The position numbers and the translations under genes are program-made. A stretch of DNA of 63,315 bases, counting the filler. It is 7 parts of 7 records of this genome, joined end to end, with 100 filler letters (N's around TTAATTAATTAA, not from the genome) between each part and the next. Parts side by side here need not be neighbours in the genome. Positions count along the whole stretch, not along the records: positions 48,040 to 63,315 come from SRR31156797_35597; 6 more parts are not named here. One strand, written 5' to 3'. Positions within the stretch are counted from its first letter, which is position 1. Each line of letters starts with the position of its first letter. The notes under the pieces were generated by a model. The model worked only from the letters and a program-made list of their open reading frames with translations. It did not search any database and was not told the origin of the DNA. Shown here piece after piece: positions 3,013 to 63,315 of the stretch.

Positions 3013-3789
3013 TTATTTTTTAAGCTTTTCAATTGCAATTTCAGCAGCCTTTTTGCCGGACAACATCATCCCACCAAAGACAGGGCCCATTCTTGGTGCA
3101 CCTGCAACAGCATTTGCAGCCATCCCTGTTGCGATAAGACCAGGATATACTTCCTTTGTGGTATCCATGAGGATCTTTTCTCCAACTTCTGCCCACATAG
3201 GCTTTTCTCCTACAACGTCAAGCCCAATATCTGCATCCGGTATTTTGCGCTGGACGGTGCTGCACACACCTGCGTCATGACCAGTACCGTCGATAACAAT
3301 CTTTGCACGAACCGCCAGAGGATCTACATGAAGACGATTCATTGACACTGGTCCCCAGTTGATAACAAGCCCACAAACAGCATCATTTTCCCTGATCATA
3401 ACATCTTCAACATCAATGAGATTGAATATTTCAACTCCGGCCCCTGTTGCACCGCAGATGAGCTTTCCCACGGATTCCACAGAGTTTGCAACATAGTAGC
3501 CTTTTTCATATTCATGATAAGGGATATCAAAATCATCAAGAATATGCTTTGCCTCTTCCTGCACTACTATGCGAGGGAACATCATTCCGCCACCCCACAT
3601 ACCTCCACCAATGGAGAGTTTTTTCTCAAAGAGGACTGTTTTAAGCCCGGCCTCTCCAAGATATTTAGCAGCTACCAGGTTTGCAGGCCCTCCGCCTACA
3701 AGTGCTACATCCACATCAATATAGTCCAGAAATGTCTTTGAAAATTCATCTACTATAGCTCGTGTAATAATAGTCTCATCAAGTTCCAT
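3013..3789 (-). CDS. thi4: Sulfide-dependent thiazole synthase (Thi4 family)
   Basis: GGGPA, GGGMWGGG, LHVDP (His instead of Cys), DGTGH, PRMGPVFGGM. Confidence 0.95.
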   Translation of the reverse strand: MELDETIITRAIVDEFSKTFLDYIDVDVALVGGGPANLVAAKYLGEAGLKTVLFEKKLSIGGGMWGGGMMFPRIVVQEEAKHILDDFDIPYHEYEKGYYVANSVESVGKLICGATGAGVEIFNLIDVEDVMIRENDAVCGLVINWGPVSMNRLHVDPLAVRAKIVIDGTGHDAGVCSTVQRKIPDADIGLDVVGEKPMWAEVGEKILMDTTKEVYPGLIATGMAANAVAGAPRMGPVFGGMMLSGKKAAEIAIEKLKK

Positions 3790-3874: not shown

Positions 3875-6190
3875 TTATAAGAGAGGGATTTCATTTTCAG
3901 ATGAAATGTCTGAATTATACTGATTACCAGACTTCACATCAGCTTCATGATCATGGGTTTGCGTATCTACTGCCTCCTTTTTTAATCTCACCCAGAACAT
4001 GCTGCCCTGTCCCTCCGGGTTATCTTCCACACCCACTGAGCCTCCATGAAGCTCAACTATCTTTTTAACGATGGCAAGACCAAGACCGGTTCCTTTTACT
4101 CCACCCTTATTTACCCTCTTAAAACGGTCAAAAACAAGAGGTTTGGACTTGTCAGGAATACCTTCTCCAGAATCAATAACATTCACCTGCCATTCATAAT
4201 TATGGTCGTCAACTTCTACAACTATCCTTGTACCCTCGGGACTGTACTTAATAGCATTTGACAGATAATTTGCGAAAACCTCTTCGATAATCGGATTAAC
4301 CATGGAAGGATAGCTACCATCGGCCCTCACTTCGAGATCCATATTCTTTTCACTTAGTTGCTGATAGAAATGTTCTGTTACATTGTTCAGAATAGACATG
4401 AGATCCATTCTTGAAATCTCAAGTTCTTCTTCGGATTCAAGTTTGGCAAACTTAGCAGCTGTTTCTATCATATCGATAAGTTTGTCAATACTCCTCTGCA
4501 TGGTACGGATAATCTTAATCTTGCTGTCCTTGTCTTCCATCTCCAGAAGTACGTCGGAAAAGCCTTTGGCATTTCCAGCAGGATTAATAAGGTCATGACG
4601 CATAATGTCTGTAAAGAGATCCTTAAGCTCATTGGAATGACGGAGTTCTTCCTCAACCCTTTTTCTCTCATCAAGGTCCATGGTAGTTCCTGTAAACCTG
4701 AATGGTTCACCCTTTTTGCCCCATTCGGTTAACTTACCCCTGGCAAGAATCCACTGCCATTTACCCCTTCTGTTCTTCATCCTGAATTCACATTCAAAAA
4801 ATGGACTTTGTCCTGAAATATGCTGATCTATGGTTTCTTCCATAGCATCGATATCTTCCGGCATTACCAGACTTTTCCAGGATTCAATGTTAGGTAGTAT
4901 AATCTTTGGATCATAGCCAAGCATTTTGGCCCAGCGATCATTGTACATAACCTCGTTGGTTTTGAGATTCCAGTCCCACATTCCAAGATTTGCACCTTCA
5001 AGCGCCAGTTGCATAACTTCTTTTGTCTTTGTAATGGTATTTTCCATCTCTTTGCGTATTGTAACATCACGTACAACCGCAAGTGCATAGTCATACTGGT
5101 CTACACTGGAGACAGTAACATTCATTTCAGCCGGGAAGACAGTACCATCTTTTCTTTTCAATGCTTTATCAGGTTCAAAATACCGTCCCCCGAAGACATC
5201 CTGGAAATCCTCTTCCCAGAAGTTGTCATCGAAAAGTGACTCAAGCTCTTCCTTACCCATACCAAGGAATTCATCCTTTGTATATTGAAGTTCCTGGCAA
5301 GCATTCTGGTTTACATCTATGATCCTGTCCTTTTCCATATCGATTACAAAAATGAAGTCATTTGACCTGTTTATAAGATCCTTGAAAAGACCAAGATCCT
5401 TAATGAAGGATTTATGGTTCAGCGCCATACTTGTGAATTCAGATATAACTTTGAGCGTCTGGATATTCTCCCTGCAACAATCCATGGCATCTGCGTAATT
5501 CTCGACACTAATAAAACCTGCAAGCTCCTCGTTTGCTTCCACAGGTATTACAAAGATTGATTCAACTCCGTTAGATCTTAATATGTTCCTTTCCCTGTCT
5601 GCATATGTCAGGAGTTTACTATCTTTGGATAAGAAGACCGTTTCCTTTTTGTCAAGTTGTTCCTTTATCCAGGAAAAATTTGAGAATGAAGTTTTTTCAA
5701 AAGCACTTATTTCGTTTTTGTAAGCCTCGCTTTTCCAGTTGAATGCCATATGGGCAGTATCATCATTTTTGAACAGGAAAAGATAACTGTTGCCTGCACT
5801 ACAAAGTGAACCGGTCCGCTCCAGTGTAGTCACCATTATTTTGTCAATATCTTTTGGAGTGATGAACATTGATACAAGGGAAGATATCATATCCTCAATC
5901 CTTGAGTTTCGCTGCACAAGGTTTTCGAGTCCTTCTCTTTTTAATTCGAGTTCATCTATCTGTGCTTCCAGCTCTTTGCTCTTCTTTTCTATGTGATTGC
6001 TGGCATAAATGATAACCATAAAAGTAAAACCTATCAATGCAGCACTTATCAGTACTGAATATGTGTCCTTTGCAATTATAAAAGGAGCAAGCAACACAAA
6101 CCCGAAAATGCATACTATTAAAAAGAAAACAGTATTAACAATTCCAGGTATTTTTGATTTCTTACGTGAGTCTTCATTATCCATAGTCAC
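3875..6190 (-). CDS. Membrane sensor histidine kinase (2 TM, GAF, PAS x2, HisKA, HATPase)
   Basis: H-box IMRHDLIN, N-box NYLSNAIKY, DSGEG, GTGLGL; PAS/PAC WDWN...WQWILARG. Confidence 0.93.
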   Translation of the reverse strand: MTMDNEDSRKKSKIPGIVNTVFFLIVCIFGFVLLAPFIIAKDTYSVLISAALIGFTFMVIIYASNHIEKKSKELEAQIDELELKREGLENLVQRNSRIEDMISSLVSMFITPKDIDKIMVTTLERTGSLCSAGNSYLFLFKNDDTAHMAFNWKSEAYKNEISAFEKTSFSNFSWIKEQLDKKETVFLSKDSKLLTYADRERNILRSNGVESIFVIPVEANEELAGFISVENYADAMDCCRENIQTLKVISEFTSMALNHKSFIKDLGLFKDLINRSNDFIFVIDMEKDRIIDVNQNACQELQYTKDEFLGMGKEELESLFDDNFWEEDFQDVFGGRYFEPDKALKRKDGTVFPAEMNVTVSSVDQYDYALAVVRDVTIRKEMENTITKTKEVMQLALEGANLGMWDWNLKTNEVMYNDRWAKMLGYDPKIILPNIESWKSLVMPEDIDAMEETIDQHISGQSPFFECEFRMKNRRGKWQWILARGKLTEWGKKGEPFRFTGTTMDLDERKRVEEELRHSNELKDLFTDIMRHDLINPAGNAKGFSDVLLEMEDKDSKIKIIRTMQRSIDKLIDMIETAAKFAKLESEEELEISRMDLMSILNNVTEHFYQQLSEKNMDLEVRADGSYPSMVNPIIEEVFANYLSNAIKYSPEGTRIVVEVDDHNYEWQVNVIDSGEGIPDKSKPLVFDRFKRVNKGGVKGTGLGLAIVKKIVELHGGSVGVEDNPEGQGSMFWVRLKKEAVDTQTHDHEADVKSGNQYNSDISSENEIPLL

Positions 6191-52893: not shown

Positions 52894-53589
52894 TTAGTTG
52901 CTCCACAGGCACTTGATTTCCTTTTGAACATCTTCCGGTAGTATCGCCGCGTAGATTTCCGTTGTCCGTGAACTCTCATGACCCAATTGTCGTTGAACGA
53001 CCCTGATGTCCCGACACTGGCGGTACAGTTGAACCGCGTAGGAGTGTCGAAGGGAGTGGATGCTCATTGAGATCGTGTACAACCCTAATTTTTTCAGGTA
53101 TTTTTTGACCATCAGCTGGAATGCTTGGCATTTCATCGGACCCCGCTGCCCTTGAAATACATGACTATCATGCTCAACGGATTCTCCTCTGTTAGTCTTC
53201 CACTTCAGGTATCGTTTAATGTGCTGCTTTGTGGTAACCGGTATTTCGACATAACGACTTTTCCGCCCCTTGCCGCATCGAATGAAGATACTACTCTGTC
53301 CGTTCTTGACGAGAAGGTCGCTGCACCTTAAATCTGCAATCTCGGCGACCCGAATACCGGTTGTGGTCAAAAGATCGATAGCCATCCATTCTCTGATGCC
53401 GGTGACATTTTTTCTCATCAATGCAACTTCACCTTTTTCACGCACTGTTCTTCTTAGCGCCTGGATTTCCTCCTTGCGAAAGTACTTCACCGTTTCGCCA
53501 TATCGGACAATTTGCGTTTTCGCATCGTTTTTCTGATTTTGATCTTTGATGGCTGGAGTGAACGGGATAATCTTTGCTGTGTTAGGCAT
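52894..53589 (-). CDS. Tyrosine recombinase/integrase (catalytic domain only)
   Basis: TGIRVAE, GKGRK, HSLRHSY, QLGH, TTEIY. Confidence 0.93.
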   Translation of the reverse strand: MPNTAKIIPFTPAIKDQNQKNDAKTQIVRYGETVKYFRKEEIQALRRTVREKGEVALMRKNVTGIREWMAIDLLTTTGIRVAEIADLRCSDLLVKNGQSSIFIRCGKGRKSRYVEIPVTTKQHIKRYLKWKTNRGESVEHDSHVFQGQRGPMKCQAFQLMVKKYLKKLGLYTISMSIHSLRHSYAVQLYRQCRDIRVVQRQLGHESSRTTEIYAAILPEDVQKEIKCLWSN

Positions 53590-54544: not shown

Positions 54545-55318
54545 AATTTTACTCCTTTCTGAACTTTTGGCGTAGGAATGCACTGTCGCGAATTTCGTGA
54601 TTTTTATTGTGTTCAGTATTTTGGTTTTGAATGGTTATGTAGAAAGGTGCAATTGAGCAATTCTCAAACAGTTAATCTTTTACTCAACTGCTTAATTTTA
54701 TTAGGATTAACGAAGACAATCAACCTTTAACACGTGATTTCATAAGGTTGAGTTAAATTTTGAAGGGATTTAAAAATTTCGGTGGGAGCACTTTTATACA
54801 ACAAACCTGAAAAGCTATTTTTCACTGTTTTTACTACAGCCAGTAGTCAGCACTGTAAACCTACTCCCAACAGTTTTTTTCGTTGTTGAGTTTTACAGGA
54901 CAGCCGTGTGTTTCAGCTCAGCGAACCCAGCAGTTTCTCCCTTTAAAAAATATGCTGAAGATGAATGCTAGTGAAGGGGTAAAAATATAAGAAGGGGGTA
55001 AATCTATGTGGTTGAAAAAAGGCTTACACGCCGACTTCAGCATATAAGGATGAGAAGTATTGGCTTCACAGCTGAGGTCTTGATGCCCTACGCTGATCTG
55101 ATGATGACAAGTTAATTTGCTGGATATCTTGTCTTACTCCCATTCGGCAAAAATGTTCGTTTCGGCAAATTTGCCAGTTCGGTGGCAGCGAATTCCTTCA
55201 ATAAAAATTGTGGCCACCAAAAAAATCGCGAATCAGGGGAGGTATTTGAATGACTGCCCTTCAGAAATTGAACCTGATAACGTTGCACTTCTGCTGTTAT
55301 GACTTTTTGGTACTGTGC

Positions 55319-55696
55319 TCAGAAAGATTTTAGGGGGAAACAACCAGAAGGCACCAAGGTTCCACTATTGTCCTCATTGAAATATATCCATGCCATAACA
55401 GTAATGGACTGAAAGGAATTATTATCCGGGCAAATTTCAACCTGCTCACGTTGGTACCAATGGGGATGTCCTTCGAGTTGATCCAGCTCGTAAAGGGTTT
55501 GGTCGTCAACTTCGTATAGTTCTCCATGGATTTGTGATACTGGTTCACTGACGATCACAAAAGGAATGCCACTGACATACATGGCGTACTTCTCTCTTGT
55601 CTTACCAGTCCCAAGGAATTTACTGTCAGCAAGAAACCTGTGGTTGCCATAACCACGCTTGAGCGTACCGTATACAAATATATTATGTGATTTCAT
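55319..55696 (-). CDS. Gamma-glutamylcyclotransferase family protein
   Basis: FVYGTLKRG, GELY, LDQLEG, AWIY. Confidence 0.9.
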   Translation of the reverse strand: MKSHNIFVYGTLKRGYGNHRFLADSKFLGTGKTREKYAMYVSGIPFVIVSEPVSQIHGELYEVDDQTLYELDQLEGHPHWYQREQVEICPDNNSFQSITVMAWIYFNEDNSGTLVPSGCFPLKSF

Positions 55697-55771
55697 ATTA
55701 TTACGTGAATTGGAAAATTATTCTGGAACGTAAAGTTTTCTTGTTTCCAGGTTCCAGGACAGGGAGTAAAA

Positions 55772-55969
55772 TTACACCACATCCACATATTCCATTATCA
55801 AGGCCAGAACATCGTCATACCTGCCACCAGAATTCTGCAACGCTTCTAATGCGGTATCAAAATTTAAAAGTTCTTGTATCAGCCCTTCTTTCTTTAACGT
55901 GTTTCTGACTATAGCTATCAGGTTGAAGACATTCCCGTTTTCTCCAATGAGCTTGCATGTTGGTTTCAT
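55772..55969 (-). CDS. Small MGE-associated hypothetical protein
   Basis: LIGENGNVFNLI...YDDVLALIMEYV, a pattern recurrent in phage/ICE proteins. Confidence 0.7.
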   Translation of the reverse strand: MKPTCKLIGENGNVFNLIAIVRNTLKKEGLIQELLNFDTALEALQNSGGRYDDVLALIMEYVDVV

Positions 55970-56298
55970 GACTGCTCACCACGGAATCTGATTTTCGGTA
56001 TCACTGAAACAGGTGTTGGCGGCCAATGCTCTTCCAACTCACAGTCTATTTCTATGCCGCCAGCACAGATTTCTTTCAGCTCAGTGAATGAAATATAGCC
56101 CCATTCGGCATTTTCCATATCACCGTTCAAAATCGCATATCCGAAAAATATATCTTCACCATCGTACTCTGCAACAAACCAGTCGCTACCGCCTATAAAG
56201 AAATGCAGGTGGATAATTTTGTCTTTGATCGGGATTGATTCTGTTTCGTAAAGGCGGGGTATACTGGCAAGGCGTTCTTTGCTGGGTTCGTTCCACAT
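55966..56298 (-). CDS. DUF2958-like protein
   Basis: PRLYETE, HFF...WFVAEYD...FFG...EWGYISFTEL; GAGGTG RBS before ATG 56298. Confidence 0.75.
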   Translation of the reverse strand: MWNEPSKERLASIPRLYETESIPIKDKIIHLHFFIGGSDWFVAEYDGEDIFFGYAILNGDMENAEWGYISFTELKEICAGGIEIDCELEEHWPPTPVSVIPKIRFRGEQS

Positions 56299-56819
56299 AG
56301 TGCACCTCATGCTGTTTAATAAATGAGGTTTTCAACGATAACATCCAAACGAGTGGAGTTAAACCAGGAACAGTTTTTCGTTGTTGCAACAGCGGAGACC
56401 TAGCGAAGACGCTTATTCTGTCGAAGGTGTACCCTCTTTATCGGACTTGATCAGAATAGCGGCAGATCGCGATTCTTAGGGAAATGCGAAAACTTTTCGG
56501 TTAAGTAAATTTTTCCGAATTCAACATAGGAGCAATCGGCAAGGTAGAAAAGTAGCGTTTATGTAAAATTCAGGAATTTCTTTGAATAATATTCTTGCCT
56601 GGAGTACAAACTTAACTACATGAAATTATTCTACTAACATTTACGTCACGATGTGACACCATTTACTTATGCTCAAAATTGGCGGTGGCTGTGTGGTATG
56701 GTCAAGAGTAAATGAAAATATGTTTAGTACATTGGAAAAACATACCCCTGATTCAGGTGTACATGAGGATACTATGAGTATTGAAAATGTTAGATATTTA
56801 ATAATTAGAGGAGATATGA

Positions 56820-58052
56820 ATGCTTGATCAAGCTTTCTCTCCATCTCGTTTGTTACGACTTGTTAAGCCTGAAGATGTAGCGAGATTTAGGCTATGGCGA
56901 CCCGGCGACGATCAAGATGCTATTATGGGTGACATTTCCTCTGAAATCAATGACCCAGAATTTTCCTTTCCAGATTTTAAGGAAAAAATTATGAGGGGGA
57001 AAACAATCTACTCGGCACCTGACGCTGTTTCGATACTTGCCTTACGTAAACTTGATAGAAACATTCGAGCGATTTACAAGGTTAAGCAGGCTAATCGTGA
57101 CGCTATGGTTCATCAGGTGAAGTCGCTATTACAAGAAGGCTGTTCGTTTACTGTCCTTCGCCTCGATATTAAATCCTTTTATGAATCAATAGACTGTAGA
57201 AAGTTGTTGAATAAAATTTCTCGAGATTCAATAGTCTCCTATACATCGAGAACCATTTTCAAGAAACTTTTTGCATCTAATCAATTTGACACCCTTTCTG
57301 GTCTACCTCGTGGGTTTGGCGTGAGTGCAACGCTAGCAGAGTTATATGTGCGAAGTCTTGATCGCCAGATCCAGGAACTCAAACATGTCTATTTTTACGG
57401 AAGGTATGTTGATGATATGGTTATCTTTACCCATGCTCCAGGTGAAGAGGTTATTGAGAAGATAAAAGATATTCTAAGTAGCTTAGGATTAGAACTTAAT
57501 CCTGAAAAAAAGGACATTATCGAGTGTAGTAGCAAAAAGAATCTCCACGATGAAAGTTGTGAATGTTTCGATTTTTTGGGTTATCGTTTCGAATGTAAGA
57601 AGTTTTTAATTAAAGAAGATGAATGGCGAGAGGTTACTGTTGGTATAGCTACTTCTAAACTGAAGAAAATTAAGTCACGCATTGCACACTCTTTTATTAA
57701 TTATTCAACAGCACCTGACTTCCCGTTACTTCTAAAAAGATTAAGGTTTCTCACCGATAGTCACACCCTCCGCAAGGGACCAAATGGTGGGCTTAAGGGG
57801 GGGATTTATTACAACTATAATCATATTGATAATGAAAAGGATTTAATTGAACTTGATAGTTTTCTTCGTCGATTAATTTTCTGTAAGAAAGGTTCGATTG
57901 GTAAGAGGTTAGCCCCCCAACTAAATGCTATACAAAGGCGAGAGCTGATTAAGCTCAGTTTTGTTGCTGCATTCAAAGGACGTTTTTCCAGAGGACGCCT
58001 CTGGGGTTCAATGAAAGAAATACGAACTGGCTGGATCTATGAGAAAAATTAG
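56820..58052 (+). CDS. drt3a: Antiviral reverse transcriptase Drt3a (UG3 class)
   Basis: VKQANRD, RLDIKSFYESI, GLPRG, GRYVDD, FDFLGY; 14-nt overlap with second RT. Confidence 0.9.
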   Translation: MLDQAFSPSRLLRLVKPEDVARFRLWRPGDDQDAIMGDISSEINDPEFSFPDFKEKIMRGKTIYSAPDAVSILALRKLDRNIRAIYKVKQANRDAMVHQVKSLLQEGCSFTVLRLDIKSFYESIDCRKLLNKISRDSIVSYTSRTIFKKLFASNQFDTLSGLPRGFGVSATLAELYVRSLDRQIQELKHVYFYGRYVDDMVIFTHAPGEEVIEKIKDILSSLGLELNPEKKDIIECSSKKNLHDESCECFDFLGYRFECKKFLIKEDEWREVTVGIATSKLKKIKSRIAHSFINYSTAPDFPLLLKRLRFLTDSHTLRKGPNGGLKGGIYYNYNHIDNEKDLIELDSFLRRLIFCKKGSIGKRLAPQLNAIQRRELIKLSFVAAFKGRFSRGRLWGSMKEIRTGWIYEKN

Positions 58053-59973
58053 AATCGACAAGTCTGACAAGTACCGCGTTCTTCTTACTGATGTACTTCC
58101 TTATGAAACACCGATGTTTTTTTCAAATGAAGGCTTCTACAGATTTTCAAAAAATAAGCTAGCGGACGCTGCGCCAATTGTTCGACAAATCCTTACCACA
58201 TTTGAAGATAGTCAAAAAAAGAAAATTTCTAAAATTGCCACCACTCCATACAGTTATGGGATCAGGAAAGGTACTTTAGGCGTACGCACGTTGAGCTTGT
58301 TTCACCCTGCAGTACAATTACAGATCGTTGATTTTTACGATAAATTTTCACATGTTATCCTAAATCTCTGCAAGCGGAGTCGATTCTCGCTTCGATATCC
58401 TGCTGCAATTGCATCAGCTGTTTATGGCAAAGAAGATGAAGCTATTGATGAGGTGAAACATGGAGCAACTTTTTTTAAGTATGAAAAGTATGATTTCCTC
58501 TATCGTTTTTACGAATCTTATGAACTGCAACGTCTAGAGAAGAGATTTCGACATTTAAGATTGTTTGATATTTCTAAATGCTTTGACCATATTTACACGC
58601 ACACTTTGTCTTGGGCTGTTCGGAGTAAAGACTTTGCGAAAGGAAATCTAGGGAGAAAAACTATTGATGGGGAATTCGATGCAATTATGCAAGCGGCGAA
58701 CCACAAAGAAACCGCCGGAATTCTGATTGGATCGGAGGTGTCTAGAATTTTTGCGGAAATCATTTTACAGAAGGTTGATCTTTCTGTCGAAAGCAGGTTG
58801 TCTAGCAAGCTAAATCGTGGGATGGATTATGATATTCGCCGATATGTTGATGACTACTATGTATTTTCTAGAACAAAAGAGATCGGTGAAACGGTCATGC
58901 GGATATATCTTGAGGAGCTAAAGATATACCGCCTCTTTTTTAATGAATCGAAATCTGTTGTCATGGTTGTACCATTTATGACGACTATCTCCTGTGCAAA
59001 AGTTGAGCTTGGTAACATCCTCAGCATTTTTTTTGAATCGTTAATAACTAAGAGTCAGGTCATTGATGGCACAGACAAAACGATAACAACATTACTGAAA
59101 ATTCGAAGTCCTAACAAGAAGGCTAGTCGGCTAATCCAGCAAATAAAATCTATTATAAAATCGCATGGAGTAGAGTTCACCAGTGTCTCCGGGTTTATAT
59201 TTTCAGTACTTGAAAAAAGGTTGAAAGATATTGTTAATAGTATCGACAAAGATAATACCAGTGACCTTGAGTTAGGAAATTTTTTATATGTCTTACTCGA
59301 TATCATATTTTTTATATACGCAATGGATGTTCGAGTATCTATAACCTATAAGGTTGGGCGCACCGCCATTAAAGCGTGTAAAACAGTTCATGGGCGCTCT
59401 GATGAAATAAATGAATTGATCAAAAAGAAGATTTACGATGAATCTCGGCGGATATTAGAATCTGAAACCTTGGGGCAACCTGAATTTTATGTAGAAACAG
59501 TCAACCTTTTAGCTGTTATTAGAATGTTGGGACCAGAATATCATGTTAGTCCAGAAATCATTGACAAGATGATAAAGGCAATGGATCGTGATAGGACCGA
59601 TGATGATTCTTCTGGGATTGACTATTTTCTCGTTGTGGCAATCCTTTTTCACATTGGAGATAATGTAGAATATTCATTTCAGAAAAAAATATTACTTCAA
59701 AAAACTATTGAGAAATTTGAAAAAGAAGAGAGACATTCTCACCGAGCCGATTTTACCTGCCTACTTTTTGATTTGCTCAGTTGTCCATTTTTAGATAATA
59801 AAATCAAAAAGAAATTGACGAGAGCCTTTAAGATTAATGATAGATTGTTGTCGGATAAAGAGAGAGGGTGTATAATGGCCGATGTTCCAAATCATCAATG
59901 GTTTACTGATTGGCACGCAAGAGATAACATTGAGGTCTTATTGCTCAAAAAAAAATACCAAGCACCATATTGA
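58039..59973 (+). CDS. drt3b: Antiviral reverse transcriptase Drt3b (UG8 class)
   Basis: LLTDVLPYETPMFFSN, DISKCFDHIYTH, GILIGSEVSRIFAE, RRYVDDY; helical C-terminal extension. Confidence 0.92.
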   Translation: MRKIRIDKSDKYRVLLTDVLPYETPMFFSNEGFYRFSKNKLADAAPIVRQILTTFEDSQKKKISKIATTPYSYGIRKGTLGVRTLSLFHPAVQLQIVDFYDKFSHVILNLCKRSRFSLRYPAAIASAVYGKEDEAIDEVKHGATFFKYEKYDFLYRFYESYELQRLEKRFRHLRLFDISKCFDHIYTHTLSWAVRSKDFAKGNLGRKTIDGEFDAIMQAANHKETAGILIGSEVSRIFAEIILQKVDLSVESRLSSKLNRGMDYDIRRYVDDYYVFSRTKEIGETVMRIYLEELKIYRLFFNESKSVVMVVPFMTTISCAKVELGNILSIFFESLITKSQVIDGTDKTITTLLKIRSPNKKASRLIQQIKSIIKSHGVEFTSVSGFIFSVLEKRLKDIVNSIDKDNTSDLELGNFLYVLLDIIFFIYAMDVRVSITYKVGRTAIKACKTVHGRSDEINELIKKKIYDESRRILESETLGQPEFYVETVNLLAVIRMLGPEYHVSPEIIDKMIKAMDRDRTDDDSSGIDYFLVVAILFHIGDNVEYSFQKKILLQKTIEKFEKEERHSHRADFTCLLFDLLSCPFLDNKIKKKLTRAFKINDRLLSDKERGCIMADVPNHQWFTDWHARDNIEVLLLKKKYQAPY

Positions 59974-59975
59974 GT

Positions 59976-60182
59976 TTGGGGATGGCACAGAAGGGGAAGG
60001 TTCGCGACGGTCAGTATTGTTTTTTGGTACTGACTCAATTACAGTTCTGATACAGATGTATTTTGACGTATCATGACCTGAGTCCAATTCGGTTTTTGTG
60101 TATGTTCATAAGTGGCGACTGAAGGCATACTCATGAGGCGGACACACACAATGTACTCGGACCCTGATGTGCTAATCCCCAA
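59976..60182 (+). ncRNA. DRT3-associated structured ncRNA with ACACACACA tract
   Basis: Closing helix ttggggat-ggcaca / tgtgct-a-atccccaa; internal stems; ACACACACA at 60142-60150; immediately after drt3b stop. Confidence 0.82.
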
Positions 60183-60254
60183 TTAACAAGCTATTGAATA
60201 TTTCTATCCGATTAAACACTACCTATATCTCTCCCGTGAATAGCACCTTTTTAT

Positions 60255-62207
60255 TTACATAATCATTTCTCGCCAACCTTCAAAGATCATAACCATCGCA
60301 AAAGTATCAAGTTCACAATAACGCAAGAGCGCACCGACAAGCTCATTTCTTTCAACAGTAGTCATCTCACTGAATTGCATTCTCCCATAGGCAGCCAGTG
60401 CGGCCCCGCCGTCAGCAAGTTTCTCGTCTTCAGTCAGTATCTGATAGTTTTTTTCGCTGACATCCTTGAACATTTTTGGAAGTTTTTTATAAGGGTCGAG
60501 CACCTCCCCGTTATTTATTTCCAGCCATTGCCAATCATGGAAATTAAAACTTTTAATGCCCCCCTCTGCCCCATAAATCGGTTTGGAGTATTTCTCTTGC
60601 AAATAGGTACTGGATTTTAAAATGGCTGGTAGCACATGTTTAATGGAATTAGATCCATGCGTCTTTGGGTCGTAGTAAAAACGTTTCACTAGATCCCACA
60701 TATCAACCATTTTTCGTTCGCCTTCCCAATATTCGTGAGCGGTACGAGTAGAGGTGCTGATCGACTTTATAAAATCACAGAGTTCTTCCCTATCTTGTAT
60801 GAATATTTCATCAGCTTGTAACTGTCTATAAATATGATTCAAGTATGTATTTTCATGTGGCGAGTAACAGAAAATAGTTCCATTATCATTTTCTAATTCA
60901 CACTTCAAGGCTCTCAGAAAATCATAATTAGGGAATTCTCCAGCACAGCTGTTCAAGTATTCACCGCTATGTTCTACTTTGCCATCTTCATACACTGTAT
61001 GATGAGAGAACTGAAAGGCTATTGGTTCATATGGTCGACGGCCTTTATTAAAAGGTATGGCGACCATGCTAGTCTCAAAATCGATGAAATGCAGAGGGTA
61101 TGTCCATCGACACATTTCCCTATTCATCCCAATATTATCAAAGTAAGGCGTTGGGTCGTTTAGTTGAACTTTCTCAACCTGCAACCACCTTCTTTCTTTT
61201 GCTGAAATACCAGGATTTCCATCGCCTTCCGGGTTAAAATCCTTATAGGTTAGATCCGAAAATTTTAATTTCCCCTCTTTGATTAGCTTGTCTTTTCTCC
61301 TTTCTTGCCAAATTTCCAAAATATTCGGTTCATCAAAATCAATATCTTCCCACAAGAGGCTTTGTTTCCAGCATTCCTTGAAACCATTTTTAAACCCCAT
61401 GGCCTCTTCATCTTTTGAACATCTGAACTCACATTTTCCACATTTGGAGCCGATAGACGGGAAAATCTTGATGTTTCTCTCATAGTGCTCGGCAAAATGT
61501 TCAATTTGGGCAGGAAAAGTTTCATCCTTCATGATTAGATCTATGCATTCGTCAACTGGGACTTTAACTAGAATCCAGTCACTTAGATCTTCATCGTTTA
61601 ATGAGGTCGAGACTTTAATCCCTTTGCGATTATTCTGATCACGCACAATTCTAAATTTCTGATTAAGCCCATCAACGGGGCATCTGGCATTTTTGTCTGC
61701 CAACATGAGAAAACTTGAGATATCTGCGTTGGGCAATCTGCCACTGAGTACATATCGCTGAAAAGCTACATCATCAAGATATGGTTGCCAGTTGCTCCTT
61801 ATAGCTCCACCATTTGTGAGGAAAGGGGCATCAGCCTCGCTATCAACAGACTTGGCCTTAACTTCAATAAGTTCAAAATGGTTTCCATCTTTTACAAGCA
61901 CATCAACGCGAATAAAAAGGTTACCAAACCTTATTGCTGGCTCATAGATGATTACCTTTTCTCGTTGCAACAGTTTATTGGTTTGTTGCTCAGCTTCTGC
62001 ATAATCAAGGCTAGTAATATCATAGCCCCCTGGGTGATAATATTTGGCTAACTCACCAACCTGGAAACCACCTTCGGCTAAAGCGGCAAGAAATGAATCA
62101 TCAAGTTTTGTATCAGGATATTCTTTTTTATTGGTGTAAAAAAGTTTGGTGGGGCATTCTCTTGCGAGTTTGAAACGTGATTTAGTTAGGAAAGGAGGTT
62201 TGGGCAT
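60255..62207 (-). CDS. DUF2779 protein (PD-(D/E)XK/Cas4-like nuclease plus RNase H-like domain)
   Basis: LTKSRF...ECP, VDVL...IEVKAK, CGKCEFRC, FIDFET, FQFSHH, YCELDT. Confidence 0.82.
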   Translation of the reverse strand: MPKPPFLTKSRFKLARECPTKLFYTNKKEYPDTKLDDSFLAALAEGGFQVGELAKYYHPGGYDITSLDYAEAEQQTNKLLQREKVIIYEPAIRFGNLFIRVDVLVKDGNHFELIEVKAKSVDSEADAPFLTNGGAIRSNWQPYLDDVAFQRYVLSGRLPNADISSFLMLADKNARCPVDGLNQKFRIVRDQNNRKGIKVSTSLNDEDLSDWILVKVPVDECIDLIMKDETFPAQIEHFAEHYERNIKIFPSIGSKCGKCEFRCSKDEEAMGFKNGFKECWKQSLLWEDIDFDEPNILEIWQERRKDKLIKEGKLKFSDLTYKDFNPEGDGNPGISAKERRWLQVEKVQLNDPTPYFDNIGMNREMCRWTYPLHFIDFETSMVAIPFNKGRRPYEPIAFQFSHHTVYEDGKVEHSGEYLNSCAGEFPNYDFLRALKCELENDNGTIFCYSPHENTYLNHIYRQLQADEIFIQDREELCDFIKSISTSTRTAHEYWEGERKMVDMWDLVKRFYYDPKTHGSNSIKHVLPAILKSSTYLQEKYSKPIYGAEGGIKSFNFHDWQWLEINNGEVLDPYKKLPKMFKDVSEKNYQILTEDEKLADGGAALAAYGRMQFSEMTTVERNELVGALLRYCELDTFAMVMIFEGWREMIM

Positions 62208-62208
62208 A

Positions 62209-62844
62209 TTAATTTTCGCTTGGCCAAAAATAATTGGTTTTTCCGCAAGGAGTTACGATTCTTTCGTTCTCGCTTGTCGCCAAAGTGTGAAGGTCTAATG
62301 TCCACTGCCTTTTAATCCCCATTAAAAGTGCATAGGCAGATATCACGGCATCCCACTCATGGTCATTTTCTGTGTTTACCTCGAGGCCTAATTGTTTGGA
62401 TAAATAACTGTCCATCCTTATATTATTACGCTCGTAATCATATTTCTCTTTAGTTAAAGCGAAGTATAATACTTTAGGGTGTGTTTCAGACAAAACGACA
62501 GTCTTAATTTTTTTTGAAATTTCAATCAACACAGACATGCCATTAAGGCCCATAGAGCCGGATAATGTATTCGGTGACATAATACTATTTATAACTTCAC
62601 GATATTTACTCCGTAGCCATAGATCTGCAGGTCTCCACCCACTATCACCGCTACTCCAGCATGAAAGTGTATCAACACCAAGGCCAACAAGGTTAGAATA
62701 ATTTGATATCTCACGAATCACCGATTCAGCATTTTTCAATGTCAGTATTTCAACCTTGCAGGGGACAAAGTTATTAACTTCTATGATTGCCAAGCCATTC
62801 TTACAATTTCCGCCAGGGTCATACCCTGCAATAATGCCATTCAT
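62209..62844 (-). CDS. DUF429 RNase H-fold predicted nuclease
   Basis: GYDPGG, GVD, ETHPK, DHEWDAVISA. Confidence 0.78.
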   Translation of the reverse strand: MNGIIAGYDPGGNCKNGLAIIEVNNFVPCKVEILTLKNAESVIREISNYSNLVGLGVDTLSCWSSGDSGWRPADLWLRSKYREVINSIMSPNTLSGSMGLNGMSVLIEISKKIKTVVLSETHPKVLYFALTKEKYDYERNNIRMDSYLSKQLGLEVNTENDHEWDAVISAYALLMGIKRQWTLDLHTLATSENERIVTPCGKTNYFWPSEN

Positions 62845-62899
62845 TACCTCTTCACCCTTTTGGCTTTTAATTCACAAAAGATAATTTTTAATGTGCTCT

Positions 62900-63065
62900 T
62901 CAGATAATAACTTTTAGTATGAAATATTCAAGCAATACCCCATCCACAATCCACGGCCCTTTTACACCAGGCAGTTTATAACCTAGGATATTTTGCGCAA
63001 CCCAGCGTGCTGCAGTCGCAGTGAGATACAGTATGTCCAATTTATAAGCGAATTTGTTTTCAGGT
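62900..63065 (-). pseudogene. Degenerate duplicate of the adjacent HTH gene
   Basis: QIRL*IGHTVSH [frameshift] ATAARWVAQNILGYKLPGVKGPWIVD aligns to the intact copy 250 bp away. Confidence 0.7.
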
Positions 63066-63140
63066 TTAATGCTGCAAATCAGCAAATTTTTCGTTTACGA
63101 AAAAATATCTAATATGAGCGAAGAAACAAACAGATTTCGC

Positions 63141-63314
63141 TTATAGGCTTCTTGGTACAATGGTATTCAAGTAACTCTGAAACAACACCTTGTCCACAAT
63201 CCATTGACCCCTATGCCCAGGTAGCTTATGTCCAAGATTGTTTTGGGCAACCCAGCGTGCTGCTGTCGAATGAGAAACTGTACGCCCAGTTTGTAACAGA
63301 ATTTGTTGCTGAGC
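63141..63314 (-). CDS. Small excisionase/MerR-like HTH protein, 5' truncated (missed by ORF track)
   Basis: Own translation AQQQILLQTGRTVSHSTAARWVAQNNLGHKLPGHRGQWIVDKVLFQSYLNTIVPRSL*. Confidence 0.6.
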   Translation of the reverse strand, partial: AQQQILLQTGRTVSHSTAARWVAQNNLGHKLPGHRGQWIVDKVLFQSYLNTIVPRSL

Positions 63315-63315
63315 G

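What the first reader, a model, noticed from the sequence alone, without database searches (positions are those of the whole stretch)
59976..60182. Unannotated ~207-nt ncRNA exposing an ACACACACA template tract
Seen: the ends pair (59976-59989 ttggggatggcaca with 60168-60182 tgtgctaatccccaa; 14 bp, one bulge, one G-U). Internal stems: gtcagta/tactgac (60010-60034), tgatac/gtatca (60048-60073), gactca/tgagtc (60032-60084, partly alternative to the first), gtatgtt/ggcatac (60100-60130) capped by agt-ggcg-act. The dinucleotide run ACACACACA (60142-60150) lies between the last hairpin and the closing helix, apparently unpaired. Inference: a telomerase-like short template that Drt3a copies reiteratively into poly(GT) DNA.
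Basis: partly seen in the sequence, partly recalled or inferred. Interest (0 to 1): 0.88.

Follow-up and report, generated by a model that had tools for sequence, protein, structure and literature searches.

The report
DRT3 defence RNA with AC template
This is the small non-coding RNA of a DRT3 anti-phage system, whose ACACACACA stretch most likely serves as the template that the reverse transcriptase Drt3a copies over and over into GT-repeat DNA, a mechanism already published in 2026 for the E. coli version.

Summary
The stretch starts 3 nt after the stop codon of drt3b. Drt3a (56820-58052) and Drt3b (58039-59973) both pass NCBIfam's curated cut-offs.

ACACAC lies on the coding strand within 400 nt 3' of drt3b in 145 of 156 non-identical homologous loci. 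GTGTGT is there in 5 of 156, and ACACAC in an in-gene control in 7 of 156.

A covariance model built from the window alone finds the one close relative, L081, at the same place (E 1.6e-8). On the 3-sequence alignment, 19 of 46 pairs change on both sides and stay paired.

A closing helix between the region at the stop codon and the region 3' of the tract recurs across the family.

The reading, Drt3a copying the tract reiteratively into poly(GT), matches what two 2026 studies showed for E. coli DRT3. The conserved CACACA motif was described in 2022.

So this is a real, divergent, unannotated member of a known RNA class. One caveat: in this copy alone, a 9-of-10 complementary segment (60096-60105) can pair with the template. 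No expression data exist for this locus.

The parts
56820..58052 (+). drt3a (UG3, class 2 reverse transcriptase, 410 aa), the enzyme expected to copy the template
   Evidence: NCBIfam NF041747 Drt3a 390 bits against a cut-off of 200. PADLOC Drt3a E 2.7e-122. PDB 9z6y_A 'Drt3a reverse transcriptase protein' E 2.8e-50. One Y.DD match, at residue 196.
58039..59973 (+). drt3b (UG8, class 1 reverse transcriptase, 644 aa); overlaps drt3a by 14 nt and ends in Tyr
   Evidence: NF041748 Drt3b 604 bits against a cut-off of 350. PADLOC E 6.6e-195. PDB 26cz_A E 1.6e-103 and 9z6y_H E 1.3e-85. E23 is nearly invariant and R236 invariant among 29 homologues. The last residues are ...QAPY.
59976..60182 (+). 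DRT3 ncRNA as delimited by its closing helix; the true 5' and 3' ends are unknown
   Evidence: Covariance-model match in L081 at the same place, E 1.6e-8. Pair counts.
59976..59989 (+). P1, 5' strand of the closing helix; a possible 4-bp extension pairs 59992-59995 with 60162-60165
   Evidence: 14 pairs checked. 6 of the 14 pairs change on both sides across the window, L081 and L082. The extension appears in all three folds.
60003..60008 (+). CGCGAC motif in the joining region after P1
   Evidence: CGCGA is shared with L081 and L179. GCGAA occurs in the ncRNA body of 34 of 109 loci against 10 of 109 in-gene controls, and many of the listed occurrences lie 16-65 nt after the stop. Function unknown.
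60010..60034 (+). P2 hairpin (7 bp core; 11 bp in the minimum-energy fold)
   Evidence: I14. 5 of 7 pairs change on both sides between the window and L081; L082 has gaps here.
60042..60080 (+). P3 hairpin (60042-60047/60075-60080 plus 60048-60053/60068-60073), preceded by AATTACAG 60037-60044
   Evidence: L081 has a shorter hairpin at the same place after the same AATTACAG. Only 1 pair changes on both sides.
60082..60085 (+). P4 5' strand (GUCC), pairing with GGAC 60140-60143, which includes the first AC of the tract; tentative template-boundary helix
   Evidence: GUCC/GGAC in the window against GUCU/AGAC in L081. Only 4 bp and 83% of cells paired. TGAGT is enriched in family ncRNA bodies, 36 against 4 of 109.
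60096..60105 (+). TTGTGTATGT, 9 of 10 complementary to the template; overlaps the 5' arm of P5
   Evidence: I4. It pairs with 60142-60146 in the minimum-energy fold. It is absent from L081 and L082. Such segments are depleted in the family, 3 of 145 against 13 of 145 controls.
60100..60130 (+). P5 hairpin 5' of the template (7 bp plus a 3-bp cap around GGCG)
   Evidence: 3 of 7 and 3 of 3 pairs change on both sides. Hairpins 5' of the tract are a family feature.
60142..60150 (+). ACACACACA, the presumed template for poly(dTdG)/poly(GT) synthesis
   Evidence: GACACACACAA is identical in the window, L081 and L082. The template role is shown for E. coli in PMC13174585.
60168..60182 (+). P1, 3' strand of the closing helix

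Best explanation

Shown here:
- The RNA-like structure begins 3 nt after the drt3b stop codon.
- It is closed by a 14-bp helix.
- It holds three or four internal hairpins.
- It carries ACACACACA between the last hairpin and the 3' strand of the closing helix.
- Tract, strand and closing helix are conserved among drt3b loci.

Inferred from the E. coli system: the RNA is transcribed with, or just after, the operon and binds Drt3a. Drt3a copies the short AC template repeatedly, realigning after each pass, to make poly(dTdG). Drt3b makes the complementary poly(dCdA) without a nucleic-acid template, primed on its own C-terminal tyrosine. The strands anneal to repeat dsDNA, whose accumulation during infection leads to abortive infection.

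A short helix that includes the first AC (60082-60085 with 60140-60143), together with the hairpin 60100-60130, probably sets the 5' limit of copying. This last point is inference.
For: Genes. Drt3a and Drt3b pass curated family cut-offs and match solved Drt3a/Drt3b chains.

Position and strand. ACACAC is on the + strand within 400 nt 3' of the drt3b stop in 145 of 156 non-identical loci. GTGTGT is there in 5 of 156, and ACACAC in the in-gene control in 7 of 156. The first set alone gave 70 of 77, 3 of 77, and controls of 4 of 69 and 4 of 77. 147 of the 156 loci also have a Drt3a-like gene upstream. The structure uses G-U pairs, 3 in the window and 12 cells in the 3-sequence alignment. These would be A-C mismatches on the other strand.

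Structure.
- The window-only covariance model R1 hits L081 at 3512-3697, directly after its drt3b stop (39.6 bits, E 1.6e-8). It hits L082 at 2079-2262, starting one base after the Drt3b match (12.1 bits; E 0.63 in the large search, 0.066 in the small one).
- On that alignment 92.7% of cells pair, against 75.8 +/- 3.2 in shuffles (0 of 500 reach it) and 34-45% with slid partners. 19 pairs change on both sides, against 8.0 +/- 2.1 in shuffles and 4-5 slid.
- Family-wide, the duplex between the stop-codon region and the 70 nt after the tract has mean z = -2.19, with 55% below -2 (n = 110). When the 3' segment is moved 200 nt, mean z = 0.03 and 2% are below -2 (n = 99).
- The 45 nt 5' of the tract fold with mean z = -0.97 and 21% below -2 (n = 146). 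The control gives -0.03 and 3%.
- The tract has unpaired probability 0.77, against 0.42 for the whole RNA, and is higher than the whole in 101 of 110.

Mechanism in the literature. PMC13174585 (abstract, passages, section 22). Reviews PMC13213688 and PMC13314766, reporting Deng et al. 2026 (passages). PMC9226505 for the conserved, exposed CACACA-like motif at a variable distance from UG8 (passages).
Against: - Nothing was measured for this locus. The window's ends, processing and abundance are unknown.
- The promoter-like site at 59848-59876 (10 of 12) is one of 12 such sites where shuffles give 12.8, and no terminator-like site follows the RNA.
- Only two relatives are close enough to align, and that alignment was fitted to the model's own structure, which favours it.
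- The L082 match is not significant on its own in the full search (E 0.63).
- R1 found none of the other loci among the 179 searched. Homology to the E. coli-type RNA therefore rests on position, the AC tract and general architecture, not on an alignment (one search failed).
- The window's own scores in the family tests are weak: closing helix z = -1.70, 5' hairpin z = -0.45.
- In this copy the thermodynamic ensemble half-buries the template (unpaired probability 0.38).
- P4 has only 4 bp, with one broken cell.
Confidence: 0.9

Rival explanations
1. The RNA is real, but in this lineage the AC tract is a protein-recognition or scaffold element rather than a copied template. This was the speculation of Mestre et al. 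2022 before the biochemistry was done.
For: PMC9226505 proposed a recognition or attachment motif. The reviews stress a scaffold role for the ncRNA in a 6:6:6 complex. No product data exist for this locus.
Against: In E. coli DRT3, template mutations abolished poly-(dTdG), and purified DRT3a needed the ncRNA, dGTP and dTTP. The motif is conserved as exact AC repeats of 6-10 nt, which fits a template for a dinucleotide repeat. Scaffold and template roles are not exclusive.
Confidence: 0.04
2. The stretch is only a structured 3' untranslated or terminator region of drt3b, and the AC run is a chance dinucleotide repeat.
For: It lies directly after the stop codon. The window's own z-scores in the family tests are modest. 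The - strand folds as well as the + strand.
Against: ACACAC is present in 145 of 156 loci against 7 of 156 in controls. The helices show compensatory changes. No terminator-like stem with a T run is present.
Confidence: 0.01
3. The functional transcript comes from the - strand and carries a GU repeat.
For: The - strand fold has z = -4.77. A convergent gene ends at 60255.
Against: The motif orientation is fixed relative to drt3b (145 against 5 of 156). G-U pairs in the conserved helices work only on the + strand. In E. coli the immunoprecipitated RNA is the one encoded downstream of DRT3b and holds 5'-ACACAC-3'.
Confidence: 0.01
4. The locus is a decaying or altered DRT3 whose template is held shut by the internal complementary segment 60096-60105, so the RNA is inactive or conditionally active.
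For: 9 of 10 bases are complementary. The segment pairs with the template in the minimum-energy fold, and the tract's unpaired probability is 0.38. A related genome (G217) carries a decayed system.
Against: Both genes here are full length with conserved catalytic and templating residues. Opening the tract costs only 0.4-2.2 kcal/mol. The segment is missing in L081 and L082 and overlaps the conserved hairpin P5, so it may be chance.
Confidence: 0.04

Closest known systems
E. coli DRT3 ncRNA (Gao et al. 2020 as cited in PMC9226505; Wang et al. 2026, PMC13174585; Deng et al. 2026 as reported in PMC13213688 and PMC13314766)
   Same: It is encoded directly 3' of drt3b on the same strand. It is a structured RNA of roughly 200 nt with a closing helix, several stem-loops, and an ACACAC tract between the last stem-loop and the 3' strand of the closing helix. 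It has the same two partner enzymes.
   Different: The window's Drt3b is about 36% identical to the E. coli cluster. There is no alignable RNA sequence outside the tract. The tract has 9 nt rather than 6. No terminator hairpin with a U run follows the RNA, whereas the six enterobacterial-type loci have a GC-rich hairpin there. This copy has an internal segment complementary to the template.
UG8-associated ncRNA groups 1-17 with the 'CACACA'-like motif (Mestre et al. 2022, PMC9226505)
   Same: The motif is conserved, predicted to be exposed, and lies at a variable distance from the end of the RT gene, with no sequence similarity between groups elsewhere. reproduce this (offsets 25-267 nt).
   Different: I could not tell which of their 20 groups this copy belongs to.
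DRT10 (UG17) and DRT9 (UG28) ncRNAs
   Same: Class 2 UG reverse transcriptases copy a short confined template in a structured ncRNA into tandem-repeat or homopolymer DNA. Wang et al. place the DRT3 motif 'analogously' to these templates.
   Different: Different RT groups, different templates and products, and a single RT. PADLOC scores the window's Drt3a far lower against RT_UG17 (E 2.9e-37) than against Drt3a (E 2.7e-122).
Telomerase RNA
   Same: It works alike: a short internal template next to a boundary helix is copied reiteratively by a dedicated reverse transcriptase.
   Different: It is not a member. It is a bacterial defence RNA unrelated in sequence, with a 2-nt repeat unit, and its product is not added to chromosome ends.

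Membership tests
DRT3 defence system (Drt3a + Drt3b + ncRNA) | Drt3a (UG3) reverse transcriptase with catalytic YxDD | tested here: met
   NF041747 390 bits against a cut-off of 200. PADLOC E 2.7e-122 over profile 1-400 of 403. Y.DD at residue 196. PDB 9z6y_A E 2.8e-50.
DRT3 defence system (Drt3a + Drt3b + ncRNA) | Drt3b (UG8) immediately downstream, same strand | tested here: met
   NF041748 604 bits against a cut-off of 350. The genes overlap by 14 nt.
DRT3 defence system (Drt3a + Drt3b + ncRNA) | Drt3b nucleotide-gating Glu and Arg and the C-terminal priming Tyr (E22, R241, Y666 in E. coli numbering; PMC13174585) | tested here: met
   E23 is nearly invariant and R236 invariant in 29 homologues. 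Both align to the same residues of chain 26cz_A; I computed the tag offset from the alignment myself. The protein ends ...PY, and 90 of 154 homologues also end in Y.
DRT3 ncRNA | Encoded directly 3' of drt3b on the coding strand | tested here: met
   The closing helix starts 3 nt after the stop codon. L081 has the same placement.
DRT3 ncRNA | Conserved 5'-ACACAC-3' motif | tested here: met
   ACACACACA at 60142-60150. 145 of 156 loci have the motif.
DRT3 ncRNA | Motif exposed in a loop next to a stem-loop | tested here: inconclusive
   It is exposed in the comparative structure and in L081 and L082 (0.77 and 0.87). In the window's own ensemble it is 0.38. Opening it costs 0.4-2.2 kcal/mol.
DRT3 ncRNA | Conserved secondary structure with covariation | tested here: met
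   19 of 46 pairs change on both sides among 3 sequences, above shuffled and slid controls. Family-wide closing-helix signal. Caveat: few sequences, and the alignment was fitted to the model.
DRT3 ncRNA | Match to the published covariance model of the E. coli-type RNA | not testable with these tools
   That model is not in Rfam 15 (0 matches) and is not available here. By the paper's own account it reached only 32 unique hits.
DRT3 ncRNA | Discrete transcript bound by the RTs | not testable with these tools
   See Tried and rejected.
DRT3 ncRNA | Templates poly(dTdG) synthesis by Drt3a | not testable with these tools
   This needs biochemistry or DNA sequencing of the products.

The most novel reading that the evidence does not exclude
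In this lineage the ncRNA carries its own anti-template. The segment 60096-60105 (9 of 10 complementary) can hold the first five bases of the AC template in a helix that competes with the conserved hairpin P5. This would give a two-state RNA in which template exposure, and so poly(GT) synthesis, is switched by Drt3a binding or by an infection signal. The family as a whole avoids such segments (3 of 145 against 13 of 145 controls), so its presence here would be a lineage-specific layer of control over a toxic DNA-making enzyme.
Probability: 0.08. Interest if true: 0.5.

Novelty: new member of a known kind. Interest (0 to 1): 0.22.

Why it matters
For the field it adds little. The RNA class, its conserved AC motif and its template role are in print (2020, 2022, 2026).

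Its value is practical:
- It is a clean, divergent instance. Its Drt3b is about 36% identical to the E. coli cluster and closest to proteins known only from metagenomes.
- The RNA class has no Rfam family, so genome annotation misses it.
- By the authors' account, the published covariance model reached only 32 unique hits.

The family statistics gathered here hold across 110-156 loci from many phyla: an oriented AC tract, a closing helix anchored at the stop codon, a hairpin 5' of the tract, and avoidance of template-complementary segments. They could seed a broader model.

The internal anti-template of this copy is the only feature that is not already explained.

Tried and rejected
- Source of the window. 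No match in the E. coli, plasmid or phage collections. No whole genome is held.
- Expression. No RNA holder was listed for this stretch. The contigs laid were DNA only. One sediment-metagenome contig covers 59901-60143 with a single T>C at 60048, at depth 2.3, which says nothing about structure.
- Closer relatives. A single-protein scan of genome contigs found none. Alignment-based scans returned loci at 30-40% identity, except L081 at 53%. A scan of 346 genomes of one methanotroph family gave one close but decayed locus.
- Sequence searches. blastn of the RNA against all loci held at that point (171) found only the AC tract itself.
- Covariance models. R1 reached only L081 and L082; the other reported matches were off-place. 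A shorter alignment (A7) put one helix out of register by one column, so I built no model from it.
- Alignment to the E. coli type. MAFFT plus RNAalifold of the window, L081 and three enterobacterial-type RNAs gave no usable alignment.
- AATTACA motif. It is shared with L081 and L010 at the same offset, between two hairpins. It is not enriched family-wide (4 of 110 against 3 of 110) and remains a lead only.
By my reading, the L081 segment at the corresponding place is not complementary to its TGAGTC. I did not count this with a tool.
- Promoter and terminator scan. The number of sites is no higher than chance.

Full report
**What is there.** The finding lies directly after two overlapping genes on the + strand.
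- ORF 56820-58052 (410 aa) matches Drt3a: PADLOC E 2.7e-122, NCBIfam NF041747 390 bits against a cut-off of 200.
- ORF 58039-59973 (644 aa) matches Drt3b: PADLOC E 6.6e-195, NF041748 604 bits against a cut-off of 350.
- Both match solved chains named Drt3a and Drt3b: 9z6y_A E 2.8e-50, 26cz_A E 1.6e-103, 9z6y_H E 1.3e-85.
- Drt3a has one Y.DD match, at residue 196.
- In Drt3b, E23 is nearly invariant and R236 invariant among 29 homologues, and the protein ends in Tyr. These correspond to the gating and priming residues described for the E. coli enzyme.
- A convergent DUF2779 gene ends at 60255.
- Rfam 15 has no match anywhere in 55000-63315 at E <= 1.

**The observation.**
- The + strand folds at -69.3 kcal/mol, z = -3.16, and 1 of 200 shuffles does as well.
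- The - strand folds at z = -4.77, so energy does not choose the strand.
- The strand is set by two other things. First, the AC motif is oriented with drt3b in homologues (below). Second, the conserved helices contain G-U pairs, 3 in the window and 12 cells in the 3-sequence alignment. These would be A-C mismatches on the other strand.

**Is the tract unpaired?** Not cleanly in this copy.
- TTGTGTATGT at 60096-60105 is 9 of 10 complementary to ACACACACAA at 60142-60151 (I4).
- The minimum-energy fold pairs 60097-60101 with 60142-60146.
- The ensemble gives the tract a mean unpaired probability of 0.38.
- Forcing 7 nt of the tract open costs 0.4 kcal/mol.
- In L081 and L082 the tract is open (0.77 and 0.87). 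Across 110 family RNAs it averages 0.77, against 0.42 for the whole RNA, and is higher than the whole in 101 of 110.
- Segments of five or more GT-repeat bases within 80 nt 5' of the tract occur in 3 of 145 loci, against 13 of 145 in-gene controls. The window's anti-template is therefore unusual for the family.

**Relatives.**
- The protein search found 680 Drt3b relatives at E <= 1e-20 among 7999 scored candidates. The closest are 85%, 72% and about 60% identical and are known only from metagenome assemblies. A Methyloprofundus MAG protein is 52% identical and the E. coli cluster 36%.
- I could fetch DNA for 80 genome loci (best 80 of 572 confirmed), 80 metagenome loci (best 80 of 421), 11 viral-contig loci (11 of 73) and 8 loci from a scan of 346 genomes of one family, of which 7 had a match.
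- Only L081 is close (Drt3b 53%, Drt3a 50%).
- A second close locus, in genome G217, is decayed. Its drt3b is split by an IS66-family transposase gene. Its downstream RNA keeps the 5' half, but no AC tract is seen.

**The AC tract in the family.**
- First set: 77 of 80 loci had an in-frame stop in the DNA held; L060, L075 and L077 did not. ACACAC occurred on the + strand within 400 nt after the stop in 70 of 77 and GTGTGT in 3 of 77. Controls gave 4 of 69 (the next 400 nt) and 4 of 77 (inside the gene).
- All loci: from 174 with a + strand Drt3b match, I dropped L060, L075, L085, L102, L140 and L152 (no in-frame stop in the DNA held), L086 (too little DNA after the stop) and L069 and L172 (Drt3b match ends early). 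I also dropped loci with identical downstream stretches or with fewer than 150 nt held downstream. Eleven loci whose match ended near residue 590-599 but ran on in frame to a stop were added back. This left 156.
- Of these 156, 145 have ACACAC on the + strand (144 within 250 nt) and 5 have GTGTGT. The in-gene control has ACACAC in 7 of 156.
- Tract forms: ACACAC 95, ACACACA 25, ACACACAC 16, ACACACACA 8, ACACACACAC 1.
- The offset from the stop ranges from 25 to 267 nt; the window's is 169.
- 147 of the 156 loci have a Drt3a-like gene upstream.
- This reproduces what Mestre et al. 2022 described: a globally conserved, apparently exposed 'CACACA'-like motif at a variable distance from UG8.

**Structure conservation near the window.** I built a covariance model (R1) from the window alone, with helices P1-P5 as checked.
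- Over the 179 loci, about 1.16 Mb, R1 found L081 at 3512-3697, directly after its drt3b stop (39.6 bits, E 1.6e-8). It found L082 at 2079-2262, starting one base after the Drt3b match (12.1 bits; E 0.63, or 0.066 in a 74-kb search).
- The remaining reported matches were off-place and weak.
- On the 3-sequence alignment, 92.7% of 109 cells pair. Shuffles give 75.8 +/- 3.2 (0 of 500 reach the observed value) and slid partners give 34-45%. 19 of 46 pairs change on both sides, against 8.0 +/- 2.1 in shuffles and 4-5 slid.
- Pairs changed on both sides, per helix: P1 6 of 14, P2 5 of 7, P3 1 of 11, P4 1 of 4, P5 3 of 7 plus 3 of 3.
- Caveats: there are only three sequences, and the alignment is fitted to the model's structure.
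- GACACACACAA is identical in all three.
- Window and L081 also share AATTACAG before P3, CTGAGTC at the start of P4, and CGCGA after P1.

**Structure conservation across the family.** Sequence is not alignable, so I used position-anchored tests.
- Closing helix. The best duplex between the 65 nt around the stop codon and the 69 nt after the tract was scored against dinucleotide shuffles. Mean z = -2.19, 55% below -2 and 91% below 0 (n = 110 loci with offset >= 90, window included). With the 3' segment moved 200 nt further on, mean z = 0.03 and 2% below -2 (n = 99).
- Hairpin 5' of the tract. The 45 nt before the tract fold with mean z = -0.97 and 21% below -2 (n = 146). In-gene 45-mers give -0.03 and 3%.
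- Individually the window scores only -1.70 and -0.45 in these tests, and L081 scores -1.00 and -2.14.
- Six enterobacterial-type loci folded together show the same plan with compensatory changes. They also have a GC-rich hairpin after the RNA that the window lacks.

**Mechanism.**
- Wang et al. 2026 (PMC13174585; I read the abstract, passages and section 22) show that the ncRNA encoded downstream of DRT3b co-purifies with the enzymes.
- A conserved 5'-ACACAC-3' loop templates poly-(dTdG). Mutating it abolishes product and defence. Purified DRT3a needs the ncRNA, dGTP and dTTP.
- DRT3b makes poly-(dCdA) without RNA.
- Read-through into the adjacent stem-loop truncates products.
- Two reviews (passages read) report the same from Deng et al. 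2026, with a 6:6:6 Drt3a:Drt3b:ncRNA complex and a comparison to telomerase.
For this locus it is inferred, not shown.
- My added inference is that the 4-bp helix GUCC/GGAC (GUCU/AGAC in L081), which takes in the first AC, together with hairpin P5, marks the 5' boundary of copying.

**Limits.**
- The ends of the RNA are unknown. The promoter-like site at 59848-59876 is one of 12 such sites where shuffles give 12.8, and there is no terminator-like site.
- Supplementary figures of PMC9226505 and PMC13174585, which hold the group structures and the covariance model, were closed. I cannot say which published group this RNA belongs to, or whether an anti-template has been noted before.
- I searched the paper library with 'DRT3 / reverse transcriptase / ncRNA', 'Drt3a / Drt3b' and 'UG3 / UG8 / ncRNA'. 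The passages I read did not mention one.

**Verdict.** This is a real feature, correctly described and correctly interpreted. It is a divergent new member of a known RNA class. Interest is low to moderate.

Noticed in passing
L172 and L179 (genome handle G217, contig C1, about 1150693-1154500): The closest genome-held relative of this DRT3 is decayed. Its drt3b is split into residues 1-514 and 525-644 by about 1.7 kb that carries an IS66-family transposase gene (Pfam E 6.3e-39). The downstream RNA keeps the 5' strand of P1, the CGCGA and AATTACAG motifs and P3, but no AC tract is seen.
   Followed up: partly
window 60096-60105 against 60142-60151: An internal segment is 9 of 10 complementary to the template tract. 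It is absent from L081 and L082, and such segments are depleted across the family (3 of 145 against 13 of 145 controls).
   Followed up: partly
ncRNA bodies of 109 drt3b loci (stop codon to AC tract): Short motifs recur far more often than in in-gene controls: TGAGT in 36 loci against 4, ATACG 37 against 5, GCGAA 34 against 10, TCGCGA 11 against 1. Many of the listed TGAGT occurrences lie 24-63 nt 5' of the tract, and many of the GCGAA occurrences 16-65 nt after the stop. The window has TGAGT at 60079-60083 and CGCGAC at 60003-60008. Shared ancestry among the loci was not corrected for.
   Followed up: partly
156 drt3b loci: The AC tract lies only 25-94 nt after the stop codon in about a quarter of the loci (25th percentile 94 nt). 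Those listed in the first set are mostly Bacteroidota or Bacteroidota-like. There the RNA must either start inside drt3b or have most of its structure 3' of the template, which is a different layout from the window's.
   Followed up: no
window 52894-53589 (-): A 231-aa ORF matches the C-terminal part of tyrosine recombinases or integrases (XerA-type E 1.1e-33, below the cut-off), about 3 kb from the DRT3 genes. This hints that the system sits on a mobile or island-like segment.
   Followed up: no
window 60255-62207 (-) and 62209-62844 (-): A convergent 650-aa DUF2779 protein (Pfam E 2.8e-22) and a 211-aa ORF without any family match lie next to the DRT3 locus. Neither matches PADLOC or NCBIfam.
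   Followed up: no
window 60037-60044; L081 about 3573-3580; L010 about 5057-5064: AATTACA sits about 60-64 nt after the stop, between two hairpins, in the window, in L081 and in an enterobacterial-type locus (AATCACA in two more). It is not enriched family-wide (4 of 110 against 3 of 110), so it may be chance.
   Followed up: partly
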